From contig QHVC01000043.1 of assembly GCA_003222205.1 (NCBI GenBank), forward strand, positions 1,944 to 65,943: a stretch of 64,000 nt of DNA. Direction: 5' to 3'. This DNA is from Gemmatimonadota bacterium. Lineage in GTDB: Bacteria; Gemmatimonadota; Gemmatimonadetes; Gemmatimonadales; GWC2-71-9. Both the position numbers and the translations under genes were made by a program. Positions within the stretch are counted from its first letter, which is position 1. Every line of letters begins with the position of its first letter. The notes under the pieces were generated by a model. That model did no database searches, was not told the DNA's origin, and worked only from the letters and a program-made list of their open reading frames with translations. Below, in pieces: positions 8,803 through 63,470 of this stretch.

Positions 8803-9939
8803 ATGATCCGTCTTCCACGTGCCCTGGCTGCTGCCGCCGCCGCACTGGTTCTCGCCTGCTCTGACAACGGGGGCACTCCCCCACCGCCCCCACCTGGGTT
8901 CACCCTCACCCCCGTGACCATCACCGGGGATGCGGGCAGCTCGCTCGGCGTGCTCGACCCTGCACTGGCGTACGCCGCGGGCGCGGGCAGTGGTGGTCTC
9001 GTCTATTCGAGCGTGCCGAGCCAGAGCTCCGTGCACACCCGCGTAGCGCAGTCGAGCGACGGCGGCGCCACCTGGGCCTTCCTCGCGGACGTGAACGTCG
9101 CTACGGCTCGCACCATCACGACCACGGACATGGCGGTGTGCGGCGCCGCCACCTGCACCGGGACGTGGGTGCACGAGGTGCCCACCCTCGTCGTGGATTC
9201 CACGGACCCGGATGCGAGCCGCCGCTACAAGGTGTTCAACCACAGCTACTTCGTGACCTCGGGCGGGACACTGGAATACGCCTACGGCGTGATCTCCCTG
9301 TACACCGCCCCGGCGCTCGGCGGCCCGTGGTCGGCGGAAACGCGGCTCCTGGGGTGGGACTCGCCCTCGACGGCTTCGGACAGCGGCGTGGGCCAAAACA
9401 TCACACACGACCCCGCCCTGACGGGGGTCAGCAACTGTGTGCTGCTCACGGAGCCTGGCGCGCAGACTCGCGGCACGACGATCGATCTCGCCGTCGGCTG
9501 CGTGTGGTTCACAGGGACCAAGTTCCCCATCGACATCCGGCTGCTGCGCTCCACCGATCACGGGGCGACGTGGACTTACGTGACGACCCTCGTCGACACG
9601 GCCGGGGCCAACTTTCTGGGGTCGGATCGGGCGCAGATCAACGGCGCCGACTTGTTCACCGCCGGCGGGAAGTACTACCTCCTGGCGGACCCGCACGGAG
9701 CGGGTGGTGCCTACCTGGGTTGTGTGGAGTTGGAGTTCACGGACATCGCATCGGGCGCCCTGCTACAGCTCATGGGCGGGCCCGAGCCCCGGCGTCTGTA
9801 TCAGGCACCGGTGGGGGTGGGTTGGACGCCGTGCACGGGGGCGCCGGGCGCCACACAAACAGGCTTCCTGATGGGCGTGGCCAATCTGTCCGTCTCGCCG
9901 CCGCTGCGCATCGTGGCGACCAACCAAGGCCCGCCCTGA
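8803..9939 (+). CDS. BNR/sialidase-like repeat lipoprotein
   Basis: Lipobox LVLAC followed by a poly-Pro linker. Two Asp-box/BNR motifs are present (SSDGGATW, STDHGATW). Confidence 0.6.
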   Translation: MIRLPRALAAAAAALVLACSDNGGTPPPPPPGFTLTPVTITGDAGSSLGVLDPALAYAAGAGSGGLVYSSVPSQSSVHTRVAQSSDGGATWAFLADVNVATARTITTTDMAVCGAATCTGTWVHEVPTLVVDSTDPDASRRYKVFNHSYFVTSGGTLEYAYGVISLYTAPALGGPWSAETRLLGWDSPSTASDSGVGQNITHDPALTGVSNCVLLTEPGAQTRGTTIDLAVGCVWFTGTKFPIDIRLLRSTDHGATWTYVTTLVDTAGANFLGSDRAQINGADLFTAGGKYYLLADPHGAGGAYLGCVELEFTDIASGALLQLMGGPEPRRLYQAPVGVGWTPCTGAPGATQTGFLMGVANLSVSPPLRIVATNQGPP

Positions 9940-9948
9940 TCGGCCGAG

Positions 9949-10110
9949 TCACGACGACTTCTTTTCAGCGAGGCGCACCAGGAACGCCATCGCCAACAGC
10001 CCGACTGCCACGACCACCAGCACTCGCCGCTGGAGCGCCATGCCGATGATCCCCACGACGAGGCCCGATGCGCCGAGCCAAGCCTTCACGCGGAACCACG
10101 GGAGCGCCAC
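9949..10110 (-). CDS. Small two-TM membrane protein (53 aa)
   Basis: GTG at 10110 lies 2 nt after the enoyl-CoA hydratase stop. GC3 is high, and the sequence WLGASGLVVGIIGMAL..VLVVVAVGLLAMAFLV forms two hydrophobic helices. Confidence 0.4.
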   Translation of the reverse strand: MALPWFRVKAWLGASGLVVGIIGMALQRRVLVVVAVGLLAMAFLVRLAEKKSS

Positions 10111-10112
10111 GA

Positions 10113-10871
10113 CTACTTCTTGAGGAACGCCTGCAGGGCGGCGCGGAAATCCGGCGTCGTTCGGCTGATGGCGTTGACGTCGGCGGAGAGGCGGATGCCC
10201 TCCGCGAACGGCACCCCCTCCAGCCGGTAGAACAGCTGTTTGGTGAGCGCGAGGGCGCTGGCGCTGATCGTCGTCAAAGTGCGGAGCAGGTCGGCGGCCT
10301 GCTCCTCGAAGTCGGCGTCCTCGTAAACGCGGGAGACGAGCCCCACGGCGGCCGCCTCGGTCGCGGTCAACACATGACCGGTCGCGGCCAGGTCGAACGC
10401 GATCTTGTCCCCGACGCTGCGTTTCAGCAGGTTCATCACGAGCGCCGGCACGAAGCCGCGCTGCACCTCCGGATAGCCGAACTGCGCCGACTCCGCCGCG
10501 AGCACCAGGTCGCACGCCGTGGCCAGGCCGCAGCCTCCCGCGAGCGCGCGCCCGCGCACCAGCGCGACCACCGGCTTGGGGAGCTGCCGCAGGCGGACGA
10601 AGATCTCGCCGAAGTGCAGCGCCGCCTCCCGGTTCTCCGTCACGGTCTTGTCGGCCGAGGCGAGCAGCTCGTGGAGATCCATCCCCGCGCAGAAGTCGAC
10701 GCCCGCCCCCCGCAGCGCGACCACGCGCACCTCGGCGTCCAGGTCGGCGCGCTCGAGCAACGCGAGCAGCGCGTCGATCATGGCCGCATCGATGGCGTTA
10801 CGCTTGTCGGGACGGTTGAGGGTCCCTGTCAACACGCCGCCTTGCAGCGCGCTCAGCACCCGATCGCTCAC
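10113..10871 (-). CDS. Enoyl-CoA hydratase/isomerase (crotonase) family protein
   Basis: 252-aa ORF; ..LNRPDKRNAID.., ..FCAGMDL.., ..VVALVRGRALAGGCGLA..CDL.. are the crotonase oxyanion-hole motifs. Confidence 0.9.
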   Translation of the reverse strand: MSDRVLSALQGGVLTGTLNRPDKRNAIDAAMIDALLALLERADLDAEVRVVALRGAGVDFCAGMDLHELLASADKTVTENREAALHFGEIFVRLRQLPKPVVALVRGRALAGGCGLATACDLVLAAESAQFGYPEVQRGFVPALVMNLLKRSVGDKIAFDLAATGHVLTATEAAAVGLVSRVYEDADFEEQAADLLRTLTTISASALALTKQLFYRLEGVPFAEGIRLSADVNAISRTTPDFRAALQAFLKK

Positions 10872-11254
10872 CGCGGCACCTCCACCATCATGCGGAGCAG
10901 GGCGGTCGAGAACACCTTTCCCTGGGCGTCCGTCTTGAGCGAGATCGTGCCGCCGCCGTCGAGCGCGCCGTGCAACAGGAAATTGAGGGCCCGCAAGTTC
11001 GGCAGCTCGAAGCGCTCGACCGGTCCGGTGATCATCCCCTTGAAGTGCCGGGCGACCCGGGCGGCGGTCACGTGCTTGACAAGGTGCGCGTAGTACTCGG
11101 GTTTCCGCGCGATGAGCCCGACATTGGCCGTGTCACCCTTGTCTCCAGACCGGGCGTGAGCGAGGTCGAGCAGCAGGACCTTGCCCTTCCTGTCCGACGG
11201 TCCGACCGTCCGACCGTCCGACGCCTCCCTTAGACCGCGACCACGTCCACGCAC
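10868..11254 (-). CDS. AtuA-associated small protein (DUF4387-like)
   Basis: Conserved core [29 protein letters not shown]...[30 protein letters not shown]. The only canonical in-frame start is GTG at 11254, which overlaps the atuA end by 25 nt. The N-terminus is encoded by the 8-bp repeat array, so the start is uncertain. Confidence 0.6.
11192..11222. repeat. Tandem array, 4 x (GTCCGAC + 1 nt), period 8
   Basis: Units begin at 11192, 11200, 11208 and 11216. On the coding (minus) strand they read GTCGGAC. The array begins 8 nt downstream of the atuA stop codon. Confidence 0.95.
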
Positions 11255-12603
11255 GGCTGGACCTCCCGCTTGTCGATGAGCGCCGGCCAGTAGGCGACGA
11301 TCTCCTCCGGCTTGGGCCGCCCGCCCGCGAACCCCGTGACGCTGGGCGGACCGTTGAGGATCAAGGGCGCGATCTCGCGCGTGAACCGCTCGACCGGGGC
11401 GAGCTCGCGCGCCCGCACGCCGACCCGGAGCTGCACCTCGGGGAGGTCGACGGGCACGCCTGCGGCGCTCGCGAGCCGACCGTGCGTCGCGTCCACGCCG
11501 ACGAATTCCGTCACGATCGCCTCGAACTCGAGTCCCAGGTCCGCGAGCCGCCGCCGCAACACCTGGTCGGCGCGGCGTGCCTTCGCGTAGGCGTCGGGCC
11601 ACGCGTACACCAGCGTCCCGACAGCCTTGTAGCCGTAGCCATAAGCGATCGAGACCTTGAGCTTGTCGGTCGCGGAGCGGCCTTTGATGCCGGCGAACCG
11701 CACGCGGTCCTTCCCTACCTGCGTCAGCTGGATGGTCGTGAAGTCGGCGACGCAGTCGGGCGTGATGTAGGCGCGCGGGTCGCCCATCTCGTAGACGAGC
11801 TGCTCGGTCACCCCGGCCACGGTGACGCGGCCGCCCGTGCCGGGATGCTTGGTCACGTCGAAGCTGCCGTCGGGGCGGGCCTCGACGATCGGATACCCGA
11901 CGTTGGCGAGGTCGGGCACGCGCTCCCAGTCCACGAGGCAATTCCCGCCGGTGCACTGGGCGCCGCATTCGATCGTGTGTCCGGCCACGGTGCCGGCCGC
12001 GAGCAGATCCCACGCGTCGCGGCGCCATCCGAAGGCGTGCATCATGGGCCCGAGCGTTAGCCCCGTGTCGGTGACGCGCCCCGTGATCACGATGTCTGCG
12101 CCGCGGCCCAGCGCCTCCACGACGGGTGCGGCGCCGAGATACGCGTTGGCCGACTGCACGCGGTCGCGCACGTCGCCGAGGGGCCGCCCGGTATCGAGGT
12201 TCTTCAGCCCGTGACCGCGCGCGAGGAGGTCGTCCAGTCGGCCCAGCAGGTCGTCGCCGCTGACGACGCCGATCGTGAGCTTCCCGGCCAGGCCGAGCCG
12301 GCGGGCGAGCGCGGCGACGGCCTCCGCGCAGGCGCGCGGGTTCACCCCGCCCGCATTCGTCGTCACCTTGATGCCGCGCTGCGCCAGGGTGGGAAGGATC
12401 CGCTCCATCAGCGGCACGAAATCCTTGGCATAGCCGAGAAGCGGGTCCCGGGACTTCTGCTTCTGCATGATGGACATGGTCACTTCGGCGAGATAGTCCA
12501 TCATCAGGTAATCCACCGGACCGCCGGTCACCTGGCGCACCGGTGCCTCGAGCCAGTCTCCCCAGAAGCCCTGCCCCGCCGCGATCCTGACGGTTTGCGT
12601 CAC
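11230..12603 (-). CDS. Acyclic terpene utilisation AtuA-like protein (DUF1446)
   Basis: GTG at 12603 overlaps the S8 peptidase stop (GTGA). ..[28 protein letters not shown].. and ..[14 protein letters not shown].. are typical DUF1446 segments. Confidence 0.8.
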
Positions 12604-15428
12604 GGATGCTCCAGGGTCGCGCGCAGAATCGCCGCGTCGCCGCCGGGAGGCGTCACGCGCACTTCGACGAGGGGCTGGAAGCCCGCGGGCGCCTGCAGCG
12701 GGGGCGTAGCGGCGATCTCGAGCGTGGAGCGGCCGCCCGCGACGACGGTCACGTCCTTGCCGGCCTGGGCCGGCCGCGGCGTCTTGAGCAGGAATCGCAC
12801 CCGCACCGTGGCGCGCCAGGCCGGGACCGGCCCGACCTGGGCCGACGCGGGGAACAGCTCGACGGTGAGCGCCTGACCGGCCAGCTCCTCGGGAACCGCG
12901 AACCGCTGGCGGGCCACCGCGTAGTTCATCGGCCCTTCGTTCACCTGCTGGCCGCTGGAATCGAAAACCGTGACCCCGAAATCGGTGAACCGGTTCCACT
13001 GCTCGCGCGGCATCTCGACGTCCACCTCGGCCCGCGCCGCCCACGCCGGGACGCGTACCGTGAGCGACTCGGCCGGGAGGCCGCGTCCTTCGACCGCAAA
13101 CGCGGCTTCCGCGCCGATCAATTGCGAGGTCACCCGGCCAGCCACCGTCTCCGATCCGGCGTCGCCGGCCTCCAGGCCATGCCCGGTCCGGGCGAGCGTC
13201 ACGGCGGCGATCGCGGCGCGCACGTCCGCGGTCACGGCCGCCAGCGGCGGGGCGACGACGTCCAGCTCGTACACGCCGGCGACGAGGTCCTCCGCCCGGA
13301 CCACGACGTCCGTCGTGCCGCCGTCGGCCCCGCCGACACTGATGTCGTCGGGTGCGTCGCGGAACGGCCGACCATCCGGCTCGTAGAGCTTGGCGAACGC
13401 GTGCTGCGTGGAATCGGCCAGGGACACCGTCGCGTGCAACGTGGAGCCCACCGCCGGCACGCGCAGGAAGTAGCGTTGGACCCGGCCCGCCGCGACGGCG
13501 TGCCGCGGGTCGCTCAGCGGACGGGTCGGGAGATCGTAGGGAACGACGATCGCGTTGACAAGCTCGAACAGCGGCCCCGAGAGGGTATCGCTGGGGTTGC
13601 GCGCGGTGACGGTGCCCACGTACACGCCCGGCGCGGCGAAGCTCGCTCCCCGGTATGCGACGGCGATATCGGTCGCCGGCGCCCCCGCCCGGATCTGCGC
13701 CGGGACCGAGAGCCACGCTGCGTCGCTGCGCAGGTCCAACTGTGCGGCGCGGAACCCCATGGCGGGCGCGACGTGGAAGGACTGCACGGTGTCGCCCGGT
13801 CCCGCGAGACCGTCGCGCCGGAAAGCCGCCGAGCTCCCGTTGGGGGTGCGCACGACGTACACCGCTCCCTGGTGCCCGGCGGCAAGCCACCGGTAGGCGG
13901 CCTCGAGTTTCGGCACGCCGGCGCCGGCATCGAGGACCGTTGTCCCGGCGATCGGGGTCGCCGAGACCCGCAGCGCCTGCATGACCTCCGCCGCGCCGGG
14001 CCGCCGACCCTCCTGCGTCATCGCCGACACGAGGCAGGCCGCCAAACCAGTGGCGTGCGGGGCGGCCATGCTGGTGCCACCCTTAATCTCGTCTCCGGTG
14101 TTCCAGCGCGGCACCGAGGAGAATGCCACCCCCGGCGCCAGCAAGTCCGGTTTGTCGCTGTCGCCGCCGCGCGAGCTGAACCAGGCGAGCGCGTCGGGCG
14201 CCGGGGGCACGCCGGGCTGCGGCGGGCGCGAAAAGACTCCGGGATACAGGGCCCCAACCGACAGGGCGAGGTCCGCGGACCCGGGAAAGCCCATGGTCGA
14301 GAGTCCCGGCCCGTCGTTGCCGGCGCTGATCGCGAACACCACGTCAGGGTGAGCAGCGAGGAATCCGTTGATGAGCGAGTCGATGAGCGCCCGTCCTTCC
14401 TGCTCGTTGCCCACGCCGAAGCTCATATTGAGCACCAAGGGGAGGTTGCGCTGGGCGGCGAAACGAGCCGCGTACTCCATCGCCCGCACCATCGAGCCGT
14501 TCACCGAGATGCCGCCGCGCGCGTTGTTGGCGATCTTGAGCGCCAGCAGCTGCGCGCCGGGAGCCACCCCGTCGAATCCCTGCACGTTGTAGAGGTTGTG
14601 CCCCGCGGCGATGCCGGCGACGTGAGTGCCGTGGCCGGACGTATCGAACACCAGGTCGAGGATCGGCGCGCCGGCGCTGTCGGTGAAGTTGGCCGCGATG
14701 GTGAGCGGGCGGCGCCCCAAGGCGATCGTCTCGCGACCCTGCCGGTAGTCGTGCAGCGGCGTTTCGTCCTCGAGCGAGCCGTTGAGGTTCGTGTCGAGGA
14801 ACGCGACCCAGCCATCCATCGCCTTCACCACGACGACCGGGAATTCATCGGTGTTGTCCCCATCGCCGTTCACATCGGCCGCGGGGAGCTTGCCCAGAGG
14901 CAGCTCGCGGAACACGCCTGCATACCACCTCGCACCGGTCGCGAGGCGGGCGATCCGCCCGGCCCCCACGAGCTGCTTTCCCGCGACCGTGACCACGCCG
15001 TCGCCGGTCGGGGTGACGGGAGTGAGGACGATCCGGCCCTCCCCGGAAAAATCGCGCAGGTCGAGGAGCTTGGGCGCCCCGGTAGTGGTGGTGATGAGGC
15101 CAGCGACGCCGGGATCCACCCCCGAGTCCAGGATCCCGATGATCACGCCGCGGCCGTCATAGGTCGGATGCGCGGTGCGGAACTGGTCCACGCCCGTGGC
15201 CCCGAGCGGCATGAGCCCCGCCAGGAGCGCGAGCGGCGGCGGCACGATCGGCTCCGCTTGCTCCGGCGTGGCCCGACTGCCGTCGGCGGGGGCGGCGGGG
15301 GCGGCGGGAGCGGCGGGAGCCGGTGTCGCGGCGGGCTTCGGCGTGGCGGGTGCTGGGCTCCGGCCGGCGCAGGCGGCGACGCACACCGCGGCGAGGACAG
15401 CCCACCAGCAAGGGAAGCGCAGCGTCAT
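12600..15428 (-). CDS. S8 family serine peptidase lipoprotein, tripeptidyl-peptidase-II-like with large C-terminal extension
   Basis: 942 aa with lipobox VAAC and a Pro/Ala linker. The catalytic triad contexts are ILDSGVD, HGTHVAG and GTSMAAPH. An inserted domain lies between Asp and His, as in TPPII-type subtilases. Confidence 0.85.
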
Positions 15429-16993
15429 GGATGACTCGGCAAAGTAAAGGGCCCGAGGTGGGGCCCGCTGAACTCGGTCGTCACCGCGAGCAGGAACGCG
15501 AGGAGGTCGCGGGTCTCCTCGGGGAGCACGATCGCGTCCACGAAACCGCGGGCGCCCGCGAATCTGGCGTCGAGCTGGTGGTCGTAGTCGGCGCGCATGG
15601 CATCCACGGCGGCCGCGTTCTGGGACTTGGCCGCCTCTTCGCCGAAGACCGCCTGGACGGCCGACTCGCCTTCCATGACTCCCATGCGGCCGGTGGGCCA
15701 GGAGAGGATGAAGTCGGGATCGAAGCCCTGGCCGGCCATGGCGTAGTAGCCGGCGCCGGAGGCGTGGTTCACCGTGAGGACGAGCTTGGCCACGGTAGCC
15801 GTCGCCATCGCTTCGACGAAGCGCGCCCCGGCGCGGATAATCCCGGTGTGCTCGGCCTCGACGCCGACCATGAACCCCGACACGTCCTGCACAAACAGCA
15901 GCGGGATGCGCTCGCGATCCGCGTTCTCGATGAAATACGCGACCTTCTCGGCGCTCTCGGTATAAATGATGCCGCCGATCTTTGGGGGCTCACCCTTCTT
16001 GCCCTTGATGACGCCGCGGGAGTTGGCGATCACCGCCACCGGGCGCCCTTCGATCACCCCATGTCCGCAGATCATCTCGGGCGCGACCTCGGGCTGGAAC
16101 TCATCGAGCCGGCCTTCGTCGAGCAGACACTCGAGCACTGCGCGCGCGTCGTAGCTCATGCGGTGGTCGGCGGGCAGGAGATCGTACAGTTCCGTGGGGT
16201 CGCGCTTGGGCGGCTTCGCGGGCGGGACGGGACGAGCGGTGGCGGGGAGTCGCGCCACGTAGGCGCGGATGCGGTCCAGACACTCGGCGTCGTCCTTGGT
16301 CCGATAGTGCGCTACGGCGCTGATGGCGGTGTGGGTCCTCGCGCCGCCCAACGTTTCCCCGTCCACGGTCTGGCCGGTCGCGCCCTTCACGAGGTTGGGG
16401 CCGCCGAGTCCCATGAACGACGTGCCGTCGACCATGAAGATCACGTCCGAGAGCGCGGGCAGGTAGGCGCCCCCGGCGATGCACGGTCCCATCACGGCGG
16501 CGATCTGCGGCACGCGCAGGTAGTGGCGCATCAGTGAGTTGTAGAAGAAGATCCGCGCCGCGCCGTACTGCCCCGGGAACACGCCCCCCTGGTAGGGCAG
16601 ATTCACTCCGGCCGAGTCGACGAGATAGACGATGGGGATGCGCTGGCGCATGGCCACTTCCTGGGCGCGCAGCATCTTCTTGATCGTCTCGGGCCACCAC
16701 GAGCCCGCCTTCACCGTGGCGTCGTTCGCCACGATCACCACCGGCCGCCCCGCCACCCGCCCCACGCCGGTGACCACTCCCGCGCCCGGGGCCTGGCCGT
16801 CGTATTGGTCGTGGGCGACGAGCAGGCCGAGCTCGAACCAAGCGCTGCCCGGGTCGAGCAACTTCGCGACCCGCTCGCGCGCCGTGAACTTCCCTTGGTC
16901 GTGCTGGCGCTTGATCTTGTCGGGGCCGCCGCCCTGCTCCAGGCGGGCCCGCAGCTCGCGCACCTCGCCGGCGAGCGTCTTGAGTCGCGTCAT
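15425..16993 (-). CDS. Acyl-CoA carboxylase carboxyltransferase (beta) subunit (propionyl-/methylcrotonyl-/geranyl-CoA carboxylase family)
   Basis: ATG at 16993. ..GKFTARERV..LLD.GS..E.. and ..VANDATVKAGSWWP.. match the family pattern. The stop overlaps the peptidase start (ATGA). Confidence 0.9.
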   Translation of the reverse strand: MTRLKTLAGEVRELRARLEQGGGPDKIKRQHDQGKFTARERVAKLLDPGSAWFELGLLVAHDQYDGQAPGAGVVTGVGRVAGRPVVIVANDATVKAGSWWPETIKKMLRAQEVAMRQRIPIVYLVDSAGVNLPYQGGVFPGQYGAARIFFYNSLMRHYLRVPQIAAVMGPCIAGGAYLPALSDVIFMVDGTSFMGLGGPNLVKGATGQTVDGETLGGARTHTAISAVAHYRTKDDAECLDRIRAYVARLPATARPVPPAKPPKRDPTELYDLLPADHRMSYDARAVLECLLDEGRLDEFQPEVAPEMICGHGVIEGRPVAVIANSRGVIKGKKGEPPKIGGIIYTESAEKVAYFIENADRERIPLLFVQDVSGFMVGVEAEHTGIIRAGARFVEAMATATVAKLVLTVNHASGAGYYAMAGQGFDPDFILSWPTGRMGVMEGESAVQAVFGEEAAKSQNAAAVDAMRADYDHQLDARFAGARGFVDAIVLPEETRDLLAFLLAVTTEFSGPHLGPFTLPSHP

Positions 16994-17007
16994 GGAAGGA
17001 CTACGGG

Positions 17008-17427
17008 TCAGGCCGCCACATGCTCGGCGGCCCACGCTTCGATGTACTTGACCAGATCCGCCGTCGGCGTGCCCGGCCCGAACAGCTTGCCGATGCCCTG
17101 CCCCTGGAGCGCCGCCATATCCTCCGGTGGGATGATCCCGCCGCCCGTGACGAGCACGTCGTCGCGCCCCGCCTGTGCGAGCAGCGCCCGGACGCGGGGG
17201 AACAGGGTCATGTGGGCGCCGGACAGGATCGAGAGCCCCACGACGTCGGCGTCCTCCTGAATCGCGGCCTGCGCGATCATCTCCGGCGTCTGGTGGAGGC
17301 CGGTGTAAATCACTTCCATTCCCGCGTCGCGCAGCGCGGCGGCGACGACCTTGGCGCCGCGATCATGTCCGTCCAGCCCGGGCTTCGCGACGAGGACCCG
17401 GATGGGCCGCTTGCGCGCCCGCGCCAT
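17008..17427 (-). CDS. Methylmalonyl-CoA mutase, cobalamin-binding small subunit
   Basis: 139 aa; ..[31 protein letters not shown].. contains the DxHxxG B12-binding motif. Confidence 0.92.
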
Positions 17428-18539
17428 CAGCGCCGGAACCTCAACAGGGCGGCCAGCCCGTCGACGGCGCGGCGGGCTTGGTCATCGTACAGCACGTCCA
17501 CCTGGGCCCGCTCCGCCAGCGCCTCCTCGACCGCATCGTCGATGCGCAGGTCGTCTGCCTGCCCGTCGGCGAGCAGCGTGCGGACCTGCCCGCGCCGCAA
17601 CGCTTTGAGCGTCGGCTCGACCCCGTTCACCGCCCAGCCCGTCCCCAGCCCGTCGCGAACGGATGCGCCGTGCGCGCGCTCCCACGCGCGCTCCCGCGCC
17701 TCGCGCAACGCCAGGGCAGCCTCCCGCACCTGCGGCGCGGAAGCGCTCTTCGGGTTGAGCTTGACGACTCCCAGGACCAGATCATGGAGATAGGTATGGA
17801 GGTGGGGCAGCACGGCGGCGGCATCGACCCCCACACCGGCCACGACGAGCCCCGCGAGCGGCCGCTGCGTGTGCAGCTGAAAAAGCTGATCCGCGACGGC
17901 GGCATAATGGCGGTGCTTCTCCTCGCGGATGCGCTGGTGATAGTTGTGCTCCCCCGAGCCCGCGCCCACTTGCCCGCCGCGGATGACCCGCCGCGCCCCG
18001 CGAAACTTGGAGGGTCGGGTCGCGAAGGCCGGGAGACCCGACAGCTCCGTTACCTCGTAGGCCGTCACGGCGAAAAAGCGCGCACTGCTGCGGTCGCAGA
18101 GGGCGACGACGATGGTGCCGAACTCCTCCTCGAGCGCGACCAGCTCACGAATGAGGGGCGTCGGGGTCACGGCGAGCCGCGACTTGTGCACATGCGGGAG
18201 CGGGAGCATGTCGAACAGACCCAGCTCCCCGCACGCGAACAAGGCAATGCCGCGCGCCGAGGGAAGCCGGCCCGGGTCGTCGAAGTAGCGGCGCACCCGT
18301 TCCAGATCCGCGGCGACCGCTTCCCGCTCCGGTCGCTCCAGGGGCAGCCGGGCAACCTCGGCGGCCGCCCGCTTGACCCGGTTCTTCATTTTGATGAGGT
18401 ACTTGCCGCGGGTCTTGTCGCGCGGCTCCAGCTTCAGGTAGCACGACACCACGCGAGCCGCGTCGAGGCTGATCCGCGACAGACGCGCGATCGCCGCGCG
18501 GATGGTGTCCTCCGTCGCGAGGGTGGGCAGGGCGGTCAT
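17427..18539 (-). CDS. eRF1-like protein (bacterial archaeo-eukaryotic release factor, baeRF-type) with intact GGQ
   Basis: 370 aa. The N-terminus has ..[12 protein letters not shown].. GGQ sits at residues 188-190 (nt 17970-17978), followed by HQRIREE..RHY. The C-terminal [23 protein letters not shown] resembles eRF1 domain 3. Assignment rests on motif recognition only. Confidence 0.55.
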
Positions 18540-18541
18540 GG

Positions 18542-20101
18542 CTAGAAGAACACCGGCTCGCGGTAGGCGCCCCAGACCCGCTCCAAGGCGTGGCGGATCT
18601 CGTACAGCGTGCAGTCGGCCCGGGCGCAGTCCAGCATCGCGGGGAGCACGTTCTCGTCGTGCTCAGCGGCGGCCCGCAGCGCCGCCAGCCGCCGCTCGAC
18701 GAGCCCCGCGTCGCGGCGCTGCCGCAGCTGCGCGAGGCGCTGGCGCTGGCTGGCTTCGGCGTCGTTGGAGATCTTGAGAATCTCCACGGGGTGATCGTCT
18801 GCCGTGACGTACTCGTTGACGCCCACGATGACGCGGTCGCCGGCCTCCGCCTGCCGTTGGAACTCCGCCGCCGACCGCGCGATCTGGCGTTGGAACCACC
18901 CGTTCTCGATCCCCTTCACCACACCGCCCCCCGATTGGATCTCCGCGAACAGCGCGTCGGCCTCTCGCTCGAGCTGGTCGGTCAGCGCCTCGACGTAGTA
19001 GGACCCGCCCAGCGGATCGACCACGTCGGCGACGCCGGTTTCGTGCGCGAGGATCTGCTGCGTCCGCAGCGCCACCTGGACGGCCTGCTCAGTCGGCAGC
19101 GCCAGGGTCTCATCCAAAGAATTGGTGTGCAGGGACTGCGTGCCGCCGAGGACCGCGGCGAGCGCTTGATAGGCGACCCGCACGATGTTGTTGTGCGGCT
19201 GCTGGGCGGTCAGGGTCACCCCGGCCGTCTGTGAATGGAAGCGCATCATCCACGACCGTGCATTCTTGGCCCCGTACTTCTCTCTCATGTGCCGCGCCCA
19301 GATGCGGCGCGCCGCGCGCAACTTCGCGATCTCCTCGAAAAAGTCGTTATGGATATCCCAGAAGAAAGACAGCCGCGGCGCGAAACTGTCCACGTCGAGG
19401 CCGCGCGCGATGCCGCGCTCGACGTACGTAAAGCCGTTCGCCAGCGTGAAGGCGAGCTCCTGGGCGGCCGTGGCGCCCGCCTCGCGGATATGGTAGCCGC
19501 TGATCGAGATCGTGTTCCACTGCGGCGTGTGCCGGGGACACCACTCGAACATGTCCACGATGACCTTGAGCGCCGGTTCGACGGGATAGACCCAGGCGTG
19601 CTGGGCCATGTACTCTTTGAGAATGTCGTTCTGGACGGTCCCCCGCAGTTTGGCGACGTCCACCCCCTGCCGCTCCGCCGCGACCACGTAGAAACAGAAG
19701 AGGATCGCCGCCGGTCCGTTGATGGTCATCGACGTCGAGACCTGATCGAGCGGAATGCCGCGAAACAGATCTTCCATGTCCACGGCGCTCGAGATCGCGA
19801 CGCCGCACTTGCCGACCTCGCCCTCGGCGCGGGCGTGGTCGGAGTCGTACCCCATCAGCGTCGGGAAGTCGAACGCCACCGAGAGCCCCGTCTGACCCCG
19901 CTCGAGCAGGAAGTGGTAGCGCTCGTTGGTATCCGCCGCGCTCCCGAAGCCCGAGAACTGCCGCATCGTCCACAGCCGCCCGCGGTGCATCGTCTGATGG
20001 ATGCCGCGGGTGAACGGATACCGGCCCGGCTCACCCAACCGCTCCGCCAGGTCTCCGGTCAGATCCTCGGGGGCATAGACCGGCTTTTTCTCGATGGTCA
20101 T
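18542..20101 (-). CDS. Methylmalonyl-CoA mutase, large (catalytic TIM-barrel) subunit
   Basis: ATG at 20101 overlaps the meaB stop (ATGA). ..YPFTRGI...[16 protein letters not shown].. and ..[15 protein letters not shown].. are diagnostic. Confidence 0.93.
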
Positions 20102-21168
20102 CGGATCGCTCCGCTCCGCAGCTGCTCCAGAATGTCGGCCGCCACGTCGTAGGGGCTGCGCCGTCCCTCGGCCATCTCGGGCAGCTGCTGGGCGAGGAGC
20201 TCCGGTGCCGGAGTCTCCTCCCAGACCCACTGCCGCAGTCCCCGCTCCACTACCGCGCGGGTGCGCTCGGCGAGGCGCTCGCGCCGCCGCGCCACGAGCC
20301 GCCCGCTCGCGTCGAGGAAGGTCCGGTGGCGGTCCAGCGCGACCGCGAGCTCGGCTACGCCCTCGCCGGTCGTGGCGACTGTCGCGAGCACCGGTGGCTC
20401 CCAATGGTCGGACGGTCGGACGGTCGGACGGTCCGACTGAGGGCGCTTACGGTCAGACTGTCCGACCGTCCGACGGTCCGACCGGTGGTGGTGGGCGGGC
20501 AGGTTGCGAAACGCGTTGCCCCGGCGCAGGCCCAGCATCACTTCGATCTCCTGCCGCAGCGTGTCGCCCCCGGGGCGGTCGCTCTTGTTGATCACGAACA
20601 CGTCGGCGATCTCCATCACGCCCGCCTTCAGTGTCTGGATGGCATCGCCGGACTCCGGGACCAGCACGAGCGCGGTGGACTCGGCGCTGCGGGCGATGTC
20701 GAGCTCCGTCTGCCCCACGCCGACCGTTTCGATGAGGATGCGATCGAAACCGAACGCCTCGAGGACGTCGGCCACCTCTTCCGTCGTCGTGGCGAGGCCG
20801 CCGAGGGAGCCGCGGGTCGCCATCGAGCGGATGAACACGCCGGGATCGAGGCTCACCGACTCCATGCGGATGCGGTCGCCGAGCAGCGCGCCACCGGTGA
20901 ACGGGCTCGTCGGGTCCACCGCAATCACCGCGACGCGGAGATCCTGCCCGCGGTAGCGCTGCACGAGGCGCTCGGTGAGGGTGCTCTTCCCCGCTCCCGG
21001 CGGTCCCGTGAGGCCGATGCGACGCGCGCCACGGCGGCCGACGCGGGCGTGCGCGTGGGTGAGCACGTCTTCACAGCCGGCGCGGCGGTTCTCCACGAGG
21101 CTGATGGCCCGGGCCAAGGCGGCGGTGTCGCCGCGATCGAGCGCGTCCACCAGAGCCCGGGTCGTCAT
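20098..21168 (-). CDS. meaB: Methylmalonyl-CoA mutase-associated GTPase MeaB/ArgK, carrying an in-frame repeat-derived insertion
   Basis: P-loop [16 protein letters not shown] and NKSD motifs are present. The segment [31 protein letters not shown] is encoded by the 20407-20482 repeat hairpin. Confidence 0.9.
20407..20482. repeat. Inverted pair of 8-bp-period arrays (4 + 4 units of GTCSGAC) forming a ~31-bp hairpin
   Basis: The left arm has units at 20407, 20415, 20423 and 20431; the right arm at 20452, 20460, 20468 and 20476; the centre is 14 nt. Base-by-base pairing shows 2 mismatches and 1 G-U. Confidence 0.95.
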
Positions 21169-21187
21169 GCGTGATTACAAGTTATGT

Positions 21188-22384
21188 TCACCGCGCGTCC
21201 TCCGCCCGGTCGAGCACGGTCGCGTTCACGGGCCCGGGTCGCACGGCGACCCGCTCGACGTGCGTCGCGGTGGCAACCAGGACGTCGAACTCGAGCCCGT
21301 GCAGAAGGAACCGCTCGCCCGGACGGGGGATGCGGCCGAGCGTTTGCACGAGCAGGCCGCCCACCGTCTGCGCCCCGCGAGCGGCCGGCACCGTCCCGAA
21401 CGTCTCCACCAACGCGGTCACGGGCGCGTTCCCGCCGAATTCCATGATCCGGGCCGGCGCGCCCCCCGGCGGAGGCGCAGGCGCCTCGAATACCTCCGCC
21501 ACCAGGGCACGCAGCACGTCCTCGAAGCTGACCACTCCTGCGGTGCCGCCGAACTCGTCGAGGACCACGGCGAGGTGGCTGCCGCCCCGCTGCATCGCCA
21601 GCATGACGTCCCCCGTCCGCTGCGTCCCGGGGACGACGTTCACCGGCCGCACCGGCACGGGATCCTCCGGCTGGAGGCGCAGCAGGTCGAAGGTGTGCGC
21701 GACTCCGACGATCTCGTCGAGCGAGCCACGGTACACGGGGTAGCGGCTGTAGCCCGATTGGGAAAAGACGTGGGCCATCTCCGCGGCCGCGAGGCCTTCG
21801 GGGATCGCCACAATCGCCGTGCGCGGCGTCATCAACTCCCGCACAGGGCGGTCGGAGAACGCCAGGACGCCCGACACGACCTCGATCTCGTCGGTGCCGG
21901 CGAGCGCGTCCGTGTCAGCGCTGGAAAGCACGGCGGCGAGCGCCGTCTGCGTCGACGGCTCGCGCCGCGGGATGAACGGCGCCAGCACGTCTCCGGCGCG
22001 CTCCATCCACGGCAACGCCCGGGCGACGATCGCCTCTGCCCAGCGGCGCCCCAGCACGCGCGGGACGAGGTAGGCCGCGTTGACGAACAGGGGGATGATC
22101 ACCGCCACGGTGAACACGCCAAGGAAGGTCGGCGTCGTTTGGGCGAGCAGCGCGGGGACGGCGGCCGCCGCGACCACGACCCCCAGCGTCGTGAGCGCGT
22201 TGGCGGTGGCGAGCACCCGGCCGGGGTGCTCGAGCAGGCGGACGGCTGCCTCCGTGCCGCGCAGCTTGTAATGCACCCAACGCGTGAGCTCCACCTGCGA
22301 CACCGCGGCCGCGGCCACGCCGATCGCTGCCGCGACGCCGGCCAGGCCGAGGCCCAGGAGCAGGACCATCAGGGAGGCGATCAT
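21188..22384 (-). CDS. CNNM/CorC/HlyC-family transporter-associated protein (DUF21 + CBS pair + CorC_HlyC)
   Basis: ATG at 22384 overlaps the upstream stop (ATGA). The protein has an N-terminal TM domain, ..RELMTPRT.., ..VLDEFGGTAGVVSFEDVL.. and a C-terminal transporter-associated domain. Confidence 0.85.
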   Translation of the reverse strand: MIASLMVLLLGLGLAGVAAAIGVAAAAVSQVELTRWVHYKLRGTEAAVRLLEHPGRVLATANALTTLGVVVAAAAVPALLAQTTPTFLGVFTVAVIIPLFVNAAYLVPRVLGRRWAEAIVARALPWMERAGDVLAPFIPRREPSTQTALAAVLSSADTDALAGTDEIEVVSGVLAFSDRPVRELMTPRTAIVAIPEGLAAAEMAHVFSQSGYSRYPVYRGSLDEIVGVAHTFDLLRLQPEDPVPVRPVNVVPGTQRTGDVMLAMQRGGSHLAVVLDEFGGTAGVVSFEDVLRALVAEVFEAPAPPPGGAPARIMEFGGNAPVTALVETFGTVPAARGAQTVGGLLVQTLGRIPRPGERFLLHGLEFDVLVATATHVERVAVRPGPVNATVLDRAEDAR

Positions 22385-23565
22385 ACCTTCTCGAAGACCA
22401 CTCGGGTGACGCGGCGGCGGTCGACCTGGTCCACCACCACCCGGAAACCGTCGAGCTTCAGTTCCTCGCCGGGGCGCGGCACGCGGCCGAGCACCGAATA
22501 GACCAGTCCGCCGACCGTCGAGACATCCGGGTGCTCGAAGCTCTGCCCCAAGGCCAGGGAGAGGTCGCCGAGCGAGGTACGGCCATCCACCCAGAACCGG
22601 TTCCCCTCGTGGCGGATGGCCGGCGCGGCGTCGACGTCGTGCTCGTCGCGGATCTCCCCGACGATCTCCTCGAGGATGTCCTCGAGCGTGATCAGCCCCG
22701 AGGTCCCCCCGAATTCGTCCACGACGATGGCGAGGTGCGCCGGCCCGCGCTGGAAGTCGCGCAGCTGCGCGTCGAGGGTCTTGGATTCGGGCACGAAGGC
22801 CGCGGGCTTCACCAGGTCCTGCCACCGTTGCGGCGCGTCGGGCCCGGGCAGCCCCATGACGAGCAGGACGATGTCCTTCGCGAACAGCACGCCCACGACG
22901 TTGTCGGGCGTGCCGTCGGAGACGGGGAGCCGGGTGTACTCGTGGTGGCGGAACGTCTCGAGCACGGCATCGAGCGGCGCCGCGACGTCAACGGCGACCA
23001 TGTCGAGCCGGGGGGTCATGACTTCGACGACCGTCGCGTCGGCCAGGGTGAAGATCCCCAGCAGCATGTCGCGCTGTGCCACGCCGAGCTCGGGCTGAAG
23101 CGGCTGGCTCGTGGTCACCAGCCCGTGGAGGCCGCGGTCCACCCACGCCAGCAGCATGAGCAACGGGGCGAACGGCATCAGCGTGCGGCGCGCGAGGGGG
23201 AGCGCCGCATCGGCGAGCTCGGGGGCGAGGCGAGCCACGCTGCGCGGCAGCGCGTCACCGACCACGAATAGGAACCCCGCCGCGACGAGCAGGGCGCCCA
23301 GGGCGCCCACCCAGGGCCGCTGCCACCAGCCCAGCGAGTGGGCGGCGGCCACGGCCCCAAGGACGAGCAGCGCGAGCCGCGCGACGTGCAGGGCCCGGTG
23401 GAGGGGGACGTGCCCCCGCACCGCCGGCGGCGGGGCGTCGCCCAGAGTGTGCAGTGCCTCGCCCACAGCCGCTTCCTCCCCGAGGGCGAGCAGGCCGGCC
23501 CACCCGGCGGCCACGACCGCGGCGACGACCCCCATCCACGAGAGCGCGGCGGCACCGAAGCTCAT
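22381..23565 (-). CDS. CNNM/CorC/HlyC-family protein (second tandem paralogue)
   Basis: ATG at 23565 overlaps the ybeY stop (ATGA). ..VVEVMTPRLDMV.., ..VVDEFGGTSGLITLEDILEEIVGEI.DEHD.. are present. Confidence 0.85.
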   Translation of the reverse strand: MSFGAAALSWMGVVAAVVAAGWAGLLALGEEAAVGEALHTLGDAPPPAVRGHVPLHRALHVARLALLVLGAVAAAHSLGWWQRPWVGALGALLVAAGFLFVVGDALPRSVARLAPELADAALPLARRTLMPFAPLLMLLAWVDRGLHGLVTTSQPLQPELGVAQRDMLLGIFTLADATVVEVMTPRLDMVAVDVAAPLDAVLETFRHHEYTRLPVSDGTPDNVVGVLFAKDIVLLVMGLPGPDAPQRWQDLVKPAAFVPESKTLDAQLRDFQRGPAHLAIVVDEFGGTSGLITLEDILEEIVGEIRDEHDVDAAPAIRHEGNRFWVDGRTSLGDLSLALGQSFEHPDVSTVGGLVYSVLGRVPRPGEELKLDGFRVVVDQVDRRRVTRVVFEKV

Positions 23566-24020
23566 CGCCCGCCCGCGGTGAGCCGGCGCACATAGCGCTC
23601 CTGCCGCCGCCACATGGTCGAGCGCGTCCGCCCCCGCCCCTCCGGGTGGTCGTAGCCGAGGACGTGGAGCGTGCCGTGAACCATGAGACGGATCAGTTCG
23701 CTGCGGAGGTCGTCGGTGGTCGGTGTGCCGTTGTCGGTCGTCGTCAGCCAACCCTCGGCCACAGTGGGGCAAATGCAGACCTCCCCGACGATCGAGCCGT
23801 CGGGCTGCGGCAGGGCGAATGCCATGACGTCGGTCAGCCCACGCCGGCCGGTGGCGCGGCGGTTCAGGCGCTGCATCGCGGGCGCCCCGAGCAGGGTCAG
23901 CTCCACGCGCACGTCCCGCGCGCCCTCCCAGGCGAGCACTCGACGCGCCACGCGCAGCAACGTGCGCTCAGAGACCCGACGCCTGCGGGGCCGGCTGCCA
24001 GTCCTTGCTGATGCCGCCAC
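23562..24020 (-). CDS. ybeY: Endoribonuclease YbeY (rRNA maturation)
   Basis: ..TDVMAF.. and the zinc motif HGTLHVLGYDH are present. The start is uncertain: ATG at 24020 overlaps pgpH by 53 nt, while TTG at 23960 lies 7 nt after the pgpH stop. Confidence 0.85.
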   Translation of the reverse strand: MAASARTGSRPRRRRVSERTLLRVARRVLAWEGARDVRVELTLLGAPAMQRLNRRATGRRGLTDVMAFALPQPDGSIVGEVCICPTVAEGWLTTTDNGTPTTDDLRSELIRLMVHGTLHVLGYDHPEGRGRTRSTMWRRQERYVRRLTAGGR

Positions 24021-28878: not shown

Positions 28879-28885
28879 CTCGATG

Positions 28886-63462: not shown

Positions 63463-63470
63463 GGGGGGAA

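What the first reader, a model, noticed from the sequence alone, without database searches (positions are those of the whole stretch)
17427..18539. eRF1-like (baeRF) protein with intact GGQ, coupled between the two methylmalonyl-CoA mutase subunits
The 370-aa ORF sits between the mutase catalytic subunit and the B12-binding subunit. The catalytic subunit's stop is 2 nt upstream of its ATG, and the B12-binding subunit's ATG shares a base with its TGA (TGATG). Its features match bacterial homologues of archaeo-eukaryotic release factor 1. These are an N-terminal [12 protein letters not shown], a central RGGQ at residues 188-190 followed by HQRIREE..RHY, and a C-terminal [23 protein letters not shown] resembling eRF1 domain 3. 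In human eRF1 the catalytic GGQ is at 183-185, an almost identical position. A putative peptidyl-tRNA hydrolase or ribosome-rescue factor embedded in a B12-dependent acyl-CoA operon (meaB-mutase-X-mutase-carboxyltransferase) has no obvious functional rationale. I do not know of a described case.
Basis: partly seen in the sequence, partly recalled or inferred. Interest (0 to 1): 0.72.

Follow-up and report, generated by a model that had tools for sequence, protein, structure and literature searches.

The report
Balon-like ribosome factor inside mutase operon
A real, conserved gene for an eRF1/Balon-type ribosome-binding protein sits between the two subunit genes of a B12-dependent acyl-CoA mutase throughout the Gemmatimonadales, but its "GGQ" is a lineage-specific accident, so it is more likely a translation brake than a peptide-release enzyme.

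Summary
ORF 17427-18539 (-) encodes 370 aa. It follows the mutase large-subunit stop by 2 nt and shares one base with the B12-subunit ATG.

The protein is an aeRF1-fold protein:
- Pfam baeRF_family10 scores 48.8 bits against a cutoff of 27.1.
- The AlphaFold model has pLDDT 88.5.
- The best solved relative is the mycobacterial hibernation factor Msmeg1130 (Balon), ahead of aRF1/eRF1/Pelota.

The position is conserved. All 80 Gemmatimonadales species loci, and deeper lineages only 42-50% identical, keep MeaB-mutase-baeRF-B12-carboxyltransferase-S8, mostly with overlapping stop/start codons. The nearest relatives outside this clade sit next to HPF, HSP20, Usp or an ECF sigma factor.

The "intact GGQ" does not hold. 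Only 6 of 199 orthologs have RGGQ. aRF1's GGQ aligns six residues downstream, at 193-195. The invariant motif there is G196-E197-H198, where family-10 relatives carry GGWSQ. The NIKS-equivalent region is variable. The C-domain insert found at the aRF1 zinc-ribbon site in Msmeg1130 is deleted; I infer that this insert is Balon's EF-Tu-binding hairpin.

Best reading: a Balon-like, probably non-hydrolytic A-site factor captured once into a catabolic operon. The reason for the linkage is unknown. It is a new variant of a known kind, of moderate interest.

The parts
17427..18539 (-). Gene for a 370-aa three-domain aeRF1-fold protein (baeRF family-10-like, a Balon homologue in the broad sense).
   Evidence: PF18854, 48.8 bits against cutoff 27.1; AF2 pLDDT 88.5; Foldseek top hit Msmeg1130 Balon, E 1.4e-21; profile against PDB: Msmeg1130 5.8e-32, aRF1 1.5e-22.
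17970..17978 (-). Codons for G188-G189-Q190, the 'GGQ' of the finding. It lies in a low-confidence, basic, variable loop and is not conserved.
   Evidence: coordinates; RGGQ in 6 of 199 orthologs; position 190 mostly V or M; loop 171-194 has pLDDT 54-68.
17946..17960 (-). Codons for G194-S-G196-E197-H198, the conserved loop-tip and helix N-cap motif. It is the counterpart of the aRF1 GGQ region and of the family-10 GGWSQ.
   Evidence: G196, E197 and R203 in 199/199; H198 in 189/199; aRF1 GGQ aligns to profile 'pGw', residues 193-195; GGWSQ aligns with G-x-G-E; helix starts at 195.
18537..18544 (-). Junction TAGccATG: the mutase large-subunit stop, 2 nt, then the baeRF start.
   Evidence: gap of -1 to 5 nt in 51 loci; no value for 10, and about 20 implausible values I take to be script errors.
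17425..17429 (-). Junction TGATG: the baeRF stop overlaps the B12-subunit start by one base.
   Evidence: overlap of 1 nt in 49 loci and 4 nt in 28 loci, out of 82 measured.
18542..20101 (-). Acyl-CoA mutase large (catalytic) subunit, 519 aa. Its ATG overlaps the MeaB stop (ATGA).
   Evidence: best solved match HcmA 4r3u, then the MCMs.
17008..17427 (-). Mutase small subunit (B12-binding domain), 139 aa.
   Evidence: TIGR00640, 174 bits against cutoff 57.
20098..21168 (-). MeaB, the G-protein chaperone of the mutase.
   Evidence: TIGR00750, 322 bits against cutoff 241.
15425..16993 (-). Acyl-CoA carboxylase carboxyltransferase subunit. The likely start is ATG 16993.
12600..15428 (-). S8 subtilase. 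Its start overlaps the carboxyltransferase stop. It is conserved in the same array.
10113..12603 (-). The rest of the array: AtuA (11230-12603), the AtuA ferredoxin-like protein (10868-11254) and enoyl-CoA hydratase (10113-10871). All have overlapping stops and starts.
   Evidence: The same genes follow in L088 and L089.

Best explanation
The ORF is a genuine gene for a three-domain aeRF1-fold protein of the bacterial baeRF-1 clade. [quoted passage not shown]

Shown:
- The fold and family.
- The absence of a conserved GGQ or NIKS.
- An invariant G-E-H at the loop-tip/helix N-cap.
- Basic N and M domains.
- One monophyletic clade of these genes lodged in a MeaB / mutase large subunit / X / B12 small subunit / carboxyltransferase / S8 protease / AtuA / enoyl-CoA hydratase operon. 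Overlapping stop/start codons are conserved across Gemmatimonadales.
- The nearest relatives outside the clade lie next to classical stress or hibernation genes.

Inferred:
- The protein still works on the ribosome. It would occupy the A site, with the N domain at the decoding centre and the basic M-domain loop and following Arg-rich helix at the peptidyl-transferase centre.
- It would recognise no stop codon and most likely would not hydrolyse peptidyl-tRNA, acting as a Balon-like brake or protector of ribosomes.
- Because it is translationally coupled to catabolic enzymes, it would be made in step with them. Those enzymes (a secreted protease plus acyl-CoA carboxylase, mutase and hydratase) suit scavenging of amino acids and branched or odd-chain acyl-CoAs.
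- This would tie a damping or hibernation of translation to a nutrient-poor, scavenging state.
- It has lost the C-domain insert at the site where Msmeg1130 has one; I infer this is the hairpin Balon uses to contact EF-Tu. Any use of EF-Tu must then differ from Balon's.
For: Family and fold:
- Pfam baeRF_family10 scores above cutoff.
- The AF2 model has pLDDT 88.5 and three domains.
- Foldseek puts Msmeg1130 (Balon) on the ribosome first (E 1.4e-21, TM 0.61), then aRF1, Balon, eRF1, Rv2629 and Pelota.
- The clade profile against PDB gives Msmeg1130 5.8e-32 over the full length.

Motifs:
- GGQ is not conserved, while G196/E197 are invariant.
- The NIKS-equivalent segment is variable.
- The protein has pI 9.75, and the loop carries 6 Lys/Arg and no acidic residue.
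- R203, R205, K208 and R210 in the helix after the loop are near-invariant. Burroughs & Aravind (PMC6514570) read this feature as large-subunit rRNA binding.

Context:
- Synteny holds in 80 of 80 species loci and in deeper lineages.
- Coupling junctions are conserved.
- Mutase-linked members are monophyletic in an NJ tree.
- Out-group contexts are HPF+CSD, HSP20, Usp and an ECF sigma factor. These match the stress-operon contexts reported for Balon homologues (PMC10901736).
- The baeRF gene is retained next to the carboxyltransferase and S8 genes in a lineage that lacks the split mutase genes at this locus. This argues that its function does not depend on them.
- A tmRNA gene in the window shows that canonical rescue exists.
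Against: - No experiment bears on ribosome binding by this clade.
- It fails the NCBIfam equivalog cutoffs for both mycobacterial Balon families (41 bits against 480; 31 against 320).
- It lacks the C-domain insert that Msmeg1130 has at the aRF1 zinc-ribbon site, which I take to be Balon's EF-Tu-binding beta-hairpin.
- It keeps a long, basic loop with an invariant G-E-H that Msmeg1130 lacks.
- A Gln is present in the loop in most members: Q184 in 178 of 199 orthologs, and GDQ in about 80% of the sister clade. Catalysis is therefore not excluded.
- The strict placement between the two mutase subunit genes over deep divergence is not explained by a hibernation role.
- The 'scavenging state' rationale is inference only.
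Confidence: 0.5

Rival explanations
1. It is an active peptidyl-tRNA hydrolase or ribosome-rescue factor. It would use a non-canonical loop: a Gln in the basic Gly-rich loop and/or the invariant G-E-H in place of GGQ/GGxSQ. It would release nascent chains from stalled ribosomes.
For: - Family 10 is the baeRF family singled out as possibly catalytic because it keeps a Gln (PMC6514570).
- A loop Gln is frequent in the mutase-linked clade: Q184 in 178 of 199 orthologs, and GDQ in about 94 of 117 sister-clade proteins.
- The window lineage lacks Q184 but has Q190, which could be compensation.
- G196-E197 is invariant exactly where relatives have S-Q.
- Loop length is mostly constant.
Against: - No Gln position is invariant.
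- 14 of the 21 orthologs without Q184 have no Gln anywhere in the loop, and three species delete the loop segment yet keep GEH.
- The window's GGQ occurs in only 3% of orthologs and does not align with aRF1's GGQ.
- The position homologous to the family-10 Gln is Glu.
- The stop-codon or empty-A-site sensing elements (NIKS, loop A) are not conserved.
- tmRNA is present in the window.
- The best structural relative is a non-catalytic hibernation factor.
Confidence: 0.2
2. The aeRF1 fold has been exapted for a non-ribosomal job in the mutase system. Possible roles are scaffolding or assembling the split large and small subunits, or assisting MeaB-gated cobalamin loading or repair.
For: - The gene sits strictly between the large and small subunit genes over deep divergence, down to 42% identity.
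- Overlapping stop/start codons imply roughly stoichiometric co-production.
- The C-domain insert that I infer to be the EF-Tu-contacting hairpin has been lost in the window clade.
- The clade left the stress-gene contexts of its relatives.
Against: - Features typical of rRNA binders are retained: pI 9.75, a basic loop, and an invariant Arg-rich helix after the loop.
- The family-wide C-domain motifs shared with aRF1 and Balon are kept: GWAV.G..TL.AL..GQVRTLL and GLAALLRFR.
- One lineage keeps the gene beside the carboxyltransferase although the split mutase genes are gone from the locus.
- Another lineage has a HAD hydrolase gene between it and the B12-subunit gene.
- No genuine gene fusions with mutase parts were found, only chimeric calls on poor contigs.
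- Split mutases elsewhere function without such a protein (general knowledge of HcmAB, IcmAB and archaeal MCM, not tested here).
Confidence: 0.12
3. It is a passenger. A stress-type baeRF gene landed once between the split mutase genes and persists because excising it would disrupt a tightly coupled operon. On this reading its placement carries no functional meaning, and the protein may be ordinary or decaying.
For: - The NJ tree suggests a single capture event.
- The same intergenic slot also accepts an unrelated HAD gene in one lineage.
- One locus carries a frameshifted copy.
Against: - Orthologs are intact and full-length in 80 of 80 species loci. Median identity is 69.7%, similar to MeaB at 69.2%.
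- Motifs are invariant.
- The gene is retained even where the flanking mutase genes were lost. The protein itself is therefore under purifying selection.
Confidence: 0.08

Closest known systems
[quoted passage not shown] 2024, PMC10901736; PDB 8rd8, 8v9j, 8v9k)
   Same: It shares the three-domain aeRF1-like architecture. Msmeg1130 is the best structural and profile match. There is no conserved NIKS or GGQ. The N and M domains are basic. The close out-group relatives sit beside HPF, HSP20 and Usp, as Balon homologues do.
   Different: It scores far below the NCBIfam equivalog cutoffs. The C-domain insert at the site where Msmeg1130 has one (inferred to be Balon's EF-Tu-binding hairpin) is deleted in the window clade. 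It keeps a long basic loop with an invariant G-E-H where Msmeg1130 has a deletion. It is embedded in a B12 mutase / acyl-CoA catabolic operon rather than a stress operon. Ribosome binding is untested.
baeRF-1 family 10 (Pfam PF18854; Burroughs & Aravind 2019, PMC6514570)
   Same: This is its best Pfam family, with a score above cutoff. It has the full three-domain arrangement. The loop motif is clearly related: G-[WFY]-[GS]-[EQ] followed by an Arg-rich helix.
   Different: Typical members score 73-115 bits and carry xQGGWSQ. This clade scores 49 bits and has Glu at the Gln position. The paper's main text mentions no mutase linkage.
Archaeal and eukaryotic class-I release factor aRF1/eRF1
   Same: It has the same fold and domain order. 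The homology is significant at profile level (4af1 1.5e-22). The C-terminal GxxxTxxALxxGxVxTLL and G(L/I)A(A/G)(L/I)LR(F/Y) motifs are shared.
   Different: The GGQ is not conserved and the window's GGQ is not at the aligned position. NIKS is absent. The window protein has no Pfam eRF1_1/2/3 hit at E<0.01. The organism's primary bacterial release factors were not looked for here.
Pelota/Dom34
   Same: It belongs to the same superfamily, is a non-catalytic A-site factor, and has a variable loop in place of GGQ.
   Different: The structural and profile matches are weaker. There is no evidence for Pelota's loop A or for a partner GTPase or ABCE1.
Split B12-dependent acyl-CoA mutases with a MeaB-type chaperone (HcmAB, IcmAB, archaeal MCM)
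   Same: The flanking genes are a large catalytic subunit, a small B12-binding subunit and MeaB.
   Different: To my knowledge, and untested here, the large and small subunit genes in those systems are not separated by a translation-factor homologue. Here they are, in every genome of the clade examined.

Membership tests
aeRF1 superfamily / bacterial baeRF-1 clade (Pfam baeRF_family10, PF18854) | Score against the family HMM above the curated gathering cutoff. | tested here: met
   48.8 bits against 27.1, E 1.1e-12, covering profile positions 1-140 of 143.
aeRF1 superfamily / bacterial baeRF-1 clade (Pfam baeRF_family10, PF18854) | Three-domain architecture: N domain, central RNase-H-like domain with loop plus long helix, and a C-terminal Pelota/L7Ae-like domain. 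| tested here: met
   AF2 model with pLDDT 88.5. There are full-length Foldseek and profile matches to Msmeg1130, aRF1 and eRF1.
aeRF1 superfamily / bacterial baeRF-1 clade (Pfam baeRF_family10, PF18854) | The well-conserved loop Gln that sets family 10 apart from other baeRF families (GGWSQ-type motif). | tested here: not met
   The aligned position is E197, invariant in 199 of 199 orthologs and in 117 of 117 scored sister-clade proteins. Which Gln the 2019 paper meant was inferred from the GGxSQ description, because the figure is not held.
Balon-type ribosome hibernation factors (NCBIfam MSMEG_1130 and Rv2629 families; Balon of Psychrobacter) | Equivalog-level sequence membership. | tested here: not met
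   NF052288 scores 41.1 bits against cutoff 480. NF052289 scores 30.6 against 320.
Balon-type ribosome hibernation factors (NCBIfam MSMEG_1130 and Rv2629 families; Balon of Psychrobacter) | Absence of the aeRF1 NIKS and GGQ motifs. | tested here: met
   This holds at clade level. RGGQ occurs in 6 of 199 orthologs. The NIKS-aligned segment (about residues 55-66) is variable.
Balon-type ribosome hibernation factors (NCBIfam MSMEG_1130 and Rv2629 families; Balon of Psychrobacter) | A beta-hairpin insertion in the C domain that contacts EF-Tu. | tested here: not met
   The roughly 32-aa insert present in Msmeg1130, the 412-aa sister clade and most relatives is missing. The model goes from strand 319-325 straight into helix 331-342. 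Equating this insert with Balon's hairpin is an inference from its position.
Balon-type ribosome hibernation factors (NCBIfam MSMEG_1130 and Rv2629 families; Balon of Psychrobacter) | An HP motif in the N domain and a lasso loop / bL27 trap in the M domain. | not tested
   Residue-level definitions were not available in the text read, and model coordinates could not be superposed.
Balon-type ribosome hibernation factors (NCBIfam MSMEG_1130 and Rv2629 families; Balon of Psychrobacter) | Binds the A site of 70S ribosomes and inhibits translation. | not testable with these tools
   This needs pelleting, cryo-EM or in vitro translation assays.
Class-I release factor aRF1/eRF1 | An invariant GGQ at the tip of the M-domain loop. 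| tested here: not met
   aRF1's GGQ aligns to residues 193-195 (A-G-S in the window protein). The window's GGQ at 188-190 is not conserved.
Class-I release factor aRF1/eRF1 | Stop-codon recognition motifs (NIKS, YxCxxxF) in the N domain. | tested here: not met
   No such motifs are present. The aligned region is variable among orthologs.
Vms1/VLRF-1 type release factors | A GGxSQ loop motif and the characteristic domain architectures. | tested here: not met
   The motif here is G-x-G-E-H. The window protein has no acVLRF1 Pfam hit, although GGWSQ-type relatives do have one.

The most novel reading that the evidence does not exclude
The aeRF1/Balon fold has been recruited as an integral component of a B12-dependent acyl-CoA mutase system. 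It might act as a physical partner of the split subunits or MeaB, or as a device coupling the ribosome directly to flux through this pathway. Its invariant G-E-H loop would then serve a function other than classical A-site occupation.
Probability: 0.12. Interest if true: 0.8.

Novelty: new variant of a known kind. Interest (0 to 1): 0.5.

Why it matters
Balon-type factors are a recently recognised and widespread way for bacteria to idle ribosomes. So far they are known from stress operons and are thought to work with EF-Tu. This clade has three unusual properties:
- It has been hard-wired by overlapping stop/start codons into a metabolic operon across a whole soil-dominant order.
- It has lost the C-domain insert that I infer to be the EF-Tu hairpin.
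- It has fixed a Glu where catalytic relatives have Gln.

If it still acts on ribosomes, it is a natural case of translation control co-regulated with a specific catabolic pathway. It is also a natural test of what the hairpin and the loop Gln are for. If it does not act on ribosomes, it would be the first aeRF1-fold protein with a non-ribosomal job.

The work also corrects an attractive but wrong cue. The GGQ should not be used to annotate these proteins as release factors, as JGI's automatic name 'peptide chain release factor subunit 1' does.

Tried and rejected
- A single-sequence search of PDB sequences gave only a marginal aRF1 hit (E 0.047). A clade profile was needed.
- PADLOC gave no defence-system match.
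- Rfam at gathering threshold found no cobalamin or other riboswitch in the window, only tmRNA.
- The promoter and terminator consensus scan of 9000-28900 found nothing above the shuffled expectation and no terminator flanking the gene.
- Literature searches linking baeRF, Balon or aeRF1 with methylmalonyl-CoA mutase or Gemmatimonadetes found nothing relevant. 'Mutase' is absent from the main text of PMC6514570. That paper's supplements are not held. The held supplement files of the Balon paper do not mention it.
- The search for Rosetta-stone fusions with mutase parts found only short chimeric gene calls on poor contigs.
- I considered a NIKS-like reading of 'IKMKNRVKR' (residues 49-57, against eRF1's NIKSRVNR). 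I rejected it because the profile alignment places aRF1's NIKS further downstream, in a variable segment.
- I considered that the ORF might be a high-GC shadow ORF. Conservation, HMM hits and fold reject this.
- My first statement that the loop has no conserved Gln was revised. Q184 is present in 89% of orthologs but is dispensable.
- The junction script gave about 20 nonsensical large gaps for the mutase-to-baeRF junction. I take these to be script errors (not checked) and ignored them.
- The taxonomy of the stress-context out-group could not be established.
I therefore could not ask whether cultured Gemmatimonas species carry the arrangement.
Full report
**1. Observation**

The window is about 70% G+C. 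On the minus strand, ORF 17427..18539 encodes 370 aa.

The junctions are as described:
- The upstream gene ends in TAG. Two bases later comes the ATG of this ORF.
- The ORF's TGA overlaps the ATG of the next gene (TGATG).
- The MeaB stop also overlaps the mutase start (ATGA). The mutase large subunit is therefore 18542..20101 (519 aa), not the longer TTG-initiated ORF.

Pfam and NCBIfam confirm the neighbours. Reading along the minus strand they are:
- PhoH, a 7TM-HD protein, YbeY and two CNNM/CorC proteins;
- MeaB and the mutase large subunit;
- this gene;
- the B12-binding small subunit, a carboxyltransferase and an S8 subtilase;
- AtuA, an AtuA-ferredoxin-like protein and an enoyl-CoA hydratase.

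From MeaB to the hydratase, nearly every stop overlaps or abuts the next start.

**2. What the protein is**

- Pfam places it in baeRF_family10 above the curated cutoff (48.8 bits against 27.1). Sub-threshold hits go to other baeRF families.
- NCBIfam gives only weak, far sub-threshold hits to the two mycobacterial 'ribosome hibernation factor' (Balon) families.
- An AlphaFold2 model built on 79 relatives is confident: pLDDT 88.5, pTM 0.76. It shows three domains. A poorly ordered loop (171-194) leads into a long helix that starts at residue 195.
- Foldseek against the PDB ranks ribosome-bound Msmeg1130 (Balon) first (E 1.4e-21, TM 0.61). aRF1, Psychrobacter Balon, eRF1, Rv2629 and Pelota/Dom34 follow.
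- A profile of the clade finds Msmeg1130 at 5.8e-32 over its full length, aRF1 4af1 at 1.5e-22 and Rv2629 at 2.8e-21.

In the broad sense used by Helena-Bueno et al. (PMC10901736), this is a Balon homologue.

**3. The GGQ**

I aligned 199 orthologs of the 370-aa clade.
- RGGQ occurs 6 times and RAGQ once. Position 190 is V, M, T, L or I in about 165 of the 199.
- The profile alignment to two aRF1 structures places their GGQ on the profile's 'pGw', which is window residues 193-195. This is six residues downstream of the window's GGQ. The near-identity with human eRF1 numbering is a coincidence.
- What is invariant is G196-E197 (199/199), H198 (189/199), and R203, I204, R205, E207 and R210 in the following helix.
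- More typical family-10 proteins score 73-115 bits and carry xQGGWSQ at this place. Their second Gln aligns with E197.

One nuance arises. Most orthologs have a Gln at position 184 (FHGERQ, 178 of 199), and the 412-aa sister clade has FHGDQ in about 80%. The window protein has R184.

Of the 21 orthologs that lack Q184:
- 4 have Q190 (at most two independent lineages);
- 14 have no loop Gln at all;
- three species have in-frame deletions of the loop segment while keeping GEH.

A loop Gln is thus common but dispensable, unlike a catalytic GGQ.

The segment aligned to NIKS is variable among orthologs.

The window clade also lacks a roughly 32-aa C-domain insert (GFRC..SGRL..C..G). This insert is present in the sister clade, in most relatives and in Msmeg1130, at the site of the aRF1 zinc ribbon. 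I infer that it is the beta-hairpin with which Balon contacts EF-Tu.

The protein is basic (pI 9.75). The loop has six Lys/Arg and no acidic residue.

**4. Conservation of the position**

A scan of one genome per GTDB species returned 148 relatives. The best 80 were all Gemmatimonadales or Gemmatimonadota MAGs at 62-75% identity.
- Every one has the order mutase large subunit / this gene / B12 subunit, wherever the contig reaches. MeaB lies upstream and the carboxyltransferase and S8 lie downstream.
- Median identities are 69.7% for this protein, 69.2% for MeaB, 79.1% for the mutase large subunit, 87.3% for the B12 subunit and 82.6% for the carboxyltransferase.
- The stop of this gene overlaps the B12-subunit start by 1 nt in 49 loci and by 4 nt in 28, out of 82 measured.

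Deeper lineages keep the arrangement. These proteins are only 42-50% identical and many are 412-415 aa, with the C-domain insert.
- L081, L082, L088 and L089 keep it unchanged.
- L094/L095 have an extra HAD hydrolase gene between this gene and the B12 gene.

Two variants exist:
- L085-87 keep this gene, the carboxyltransferase and S8 but lack the split mutase genes. An IcmF-like fused mutase lies nearby on the other strand.
- L091 has a frameshifted copy followed by the B12 and carboxyltransferase genes.

In an NJ tree (no support values) all mutase- or carboxyltransferase-linked members form one clade.

The nearest relatives outside that clade lie beside different genes:
- an HPF(S30AE)-CSD gene;
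- HSP20;
- a universal stress protein;
- a PolX-like gene;
- an ECF sigma factor.

These are the kinds of stress contexts described for baeRF and Balon genes (PMC6514570; PMC10901736).

**5. Mechanism**

The best-supported reading is a single ancestral capture of a Balon-type factor into a catabolic operon, followed by vertical inheritance under purifying selection.

I infer that it still binds the ribosomal A site. The reasons are the fold, the basic N and M domains, the invariant Arg-rich helix after the loop, and the family-wide C-domain motifs. I infer that it acts without stop-codon recognition and probably without hydrolysis, as a brake or protector of ribosomes.

Translational coupling means it is made together with a secreted protease and acyl-CoA carboxylase, mutase and hydratase enzymes. 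That set is plausible for scavenging amino acids and odd- or branched-chain acyl-CoAs. This rationale is inference only.

The window also carries a tmRNA gene, so canonical rescue is available.

Rivals:
- A non-canonical hydrolase that uses the loop Gln and/or G-E-H.
- Exaptation as a mutase accessory protein.
- A mere passenger gene.

The lineage that keeps the gene without the split mutase genes, together with the RNA-binder-like features, argues against a dedicated mutase-assembly role. Uniform intactness and invariant motifs argue against a passenger. The dispensability of every loop Gln argues against classical catalysis. None of these rivals is excluded.

**6. Comparison with the known, and novelty**

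The family is known. baeRF-1 family 10 was defined in 2019 and flagged there as possibly catalytic. Balon-type hibernation factors were shown on ribosomes in 2024. I found no report of a linkage to a B12 mutase operon.

This clade differs from described members in four ways:
- Glu replaces the family-10 Gln.
- The C-domain insert, inferred to be the EF-Tu hairpin, has been lost in the window clade.
- It has a long basic loop with an invariant G-E-H that Msmeg1130 lacks.
- It sits in a fixed, translationally coupled position inside a metabolic operon.

I rate it a new variant of a known kind, with moderate interest (0.5).

Noticed in passing
window 63468-63825 (-): A tmRNA gene (Rfam RF00023, 159.6 bits, full length). 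The organism therefore has canonical trans-translation rescue.
   Followed up: partly
window 10113-28843 (-): A long co-directional array: PhoH, 7TM-HD (PgpH-like), YbeY, two CNNM/CorC proteins, MeaB, mutase large subunit, baeRF, B12 subunit, carboxyltransferase, S8 subtilase, AtuA, AtuA-ferredoxin and enoyl-CoA hydratase. The upstream phoH-ybeY-corC part is the widespread rRNA-maturation-associated cluster. In the 412-aa sister clade the MeaB-to-hydratase block stands alone behind a VTT-domain gene.
   Followed up: partly
window 12600-15428 (-) and 12606-15434 (+): Two mirror ORFs of exactly 942 aa lie on opposite strands. The minus-strand ORF is the S8 subtilase. I take the plus-strand ORF to be a high-GC shadow ORF.
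   Followed up: no
window 18542-20101 (-): The mutase large subunit's best solved-structure match is the 2-hydroxyisobutyryl-CoA mutase large subunit HcmA (4r3u, 545.7 bits). This is ahead of the human and bacterial methylmalonyl-CoA mutases (about 475-500 bits). The substrate is therefore not settled, and 'methylmalonyl-CoA mutase' may be too specific a name.
   Followed up: no
L094 7275-7970 and L095 1398-2093: In one deep lineage a HAD-family hydrolase gene sits between the baeRF gene and the B12-subunit gene. The slot between the two mutase subunit genes has therefore accepted a second unrelated gene.
   Followed up: no
L085-L087 (e.g. L085 8001-14312 and 16233-17191): One lineage keeps baeRF, the carboxyltransferase, an OMP gene and S8, but lacks the MeaB, mutase large-subunit and B12 genes at the locus. 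An IcmF-like fused mutase (B12-binding + MeaB + mutase domains) lies nearby on the opposite strand.
   Followed up: partly
L091 876-1971: The baeRF homologue is split into two reading frames, through either a frameshift or an assembly error. A B12-domain gene lies on the opposite strand upstream.
   Followed up: no
L056, L067, L079 (baeRF loop region): Three species carry in-frame deletions of most of the basic loop (window residues about 181-193) while keeping the invariant GEH.
   Followed up: partly
window 15449-15466 (-): A perfect GGGCCC/GGGCCC hairpin followed by a T-rich tail lies inside the 3' end of the carboxyltransferase gene, just before the S8 start. The terminator-like hits in the region were not more numerous than in shuffles.
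   Followed up: no
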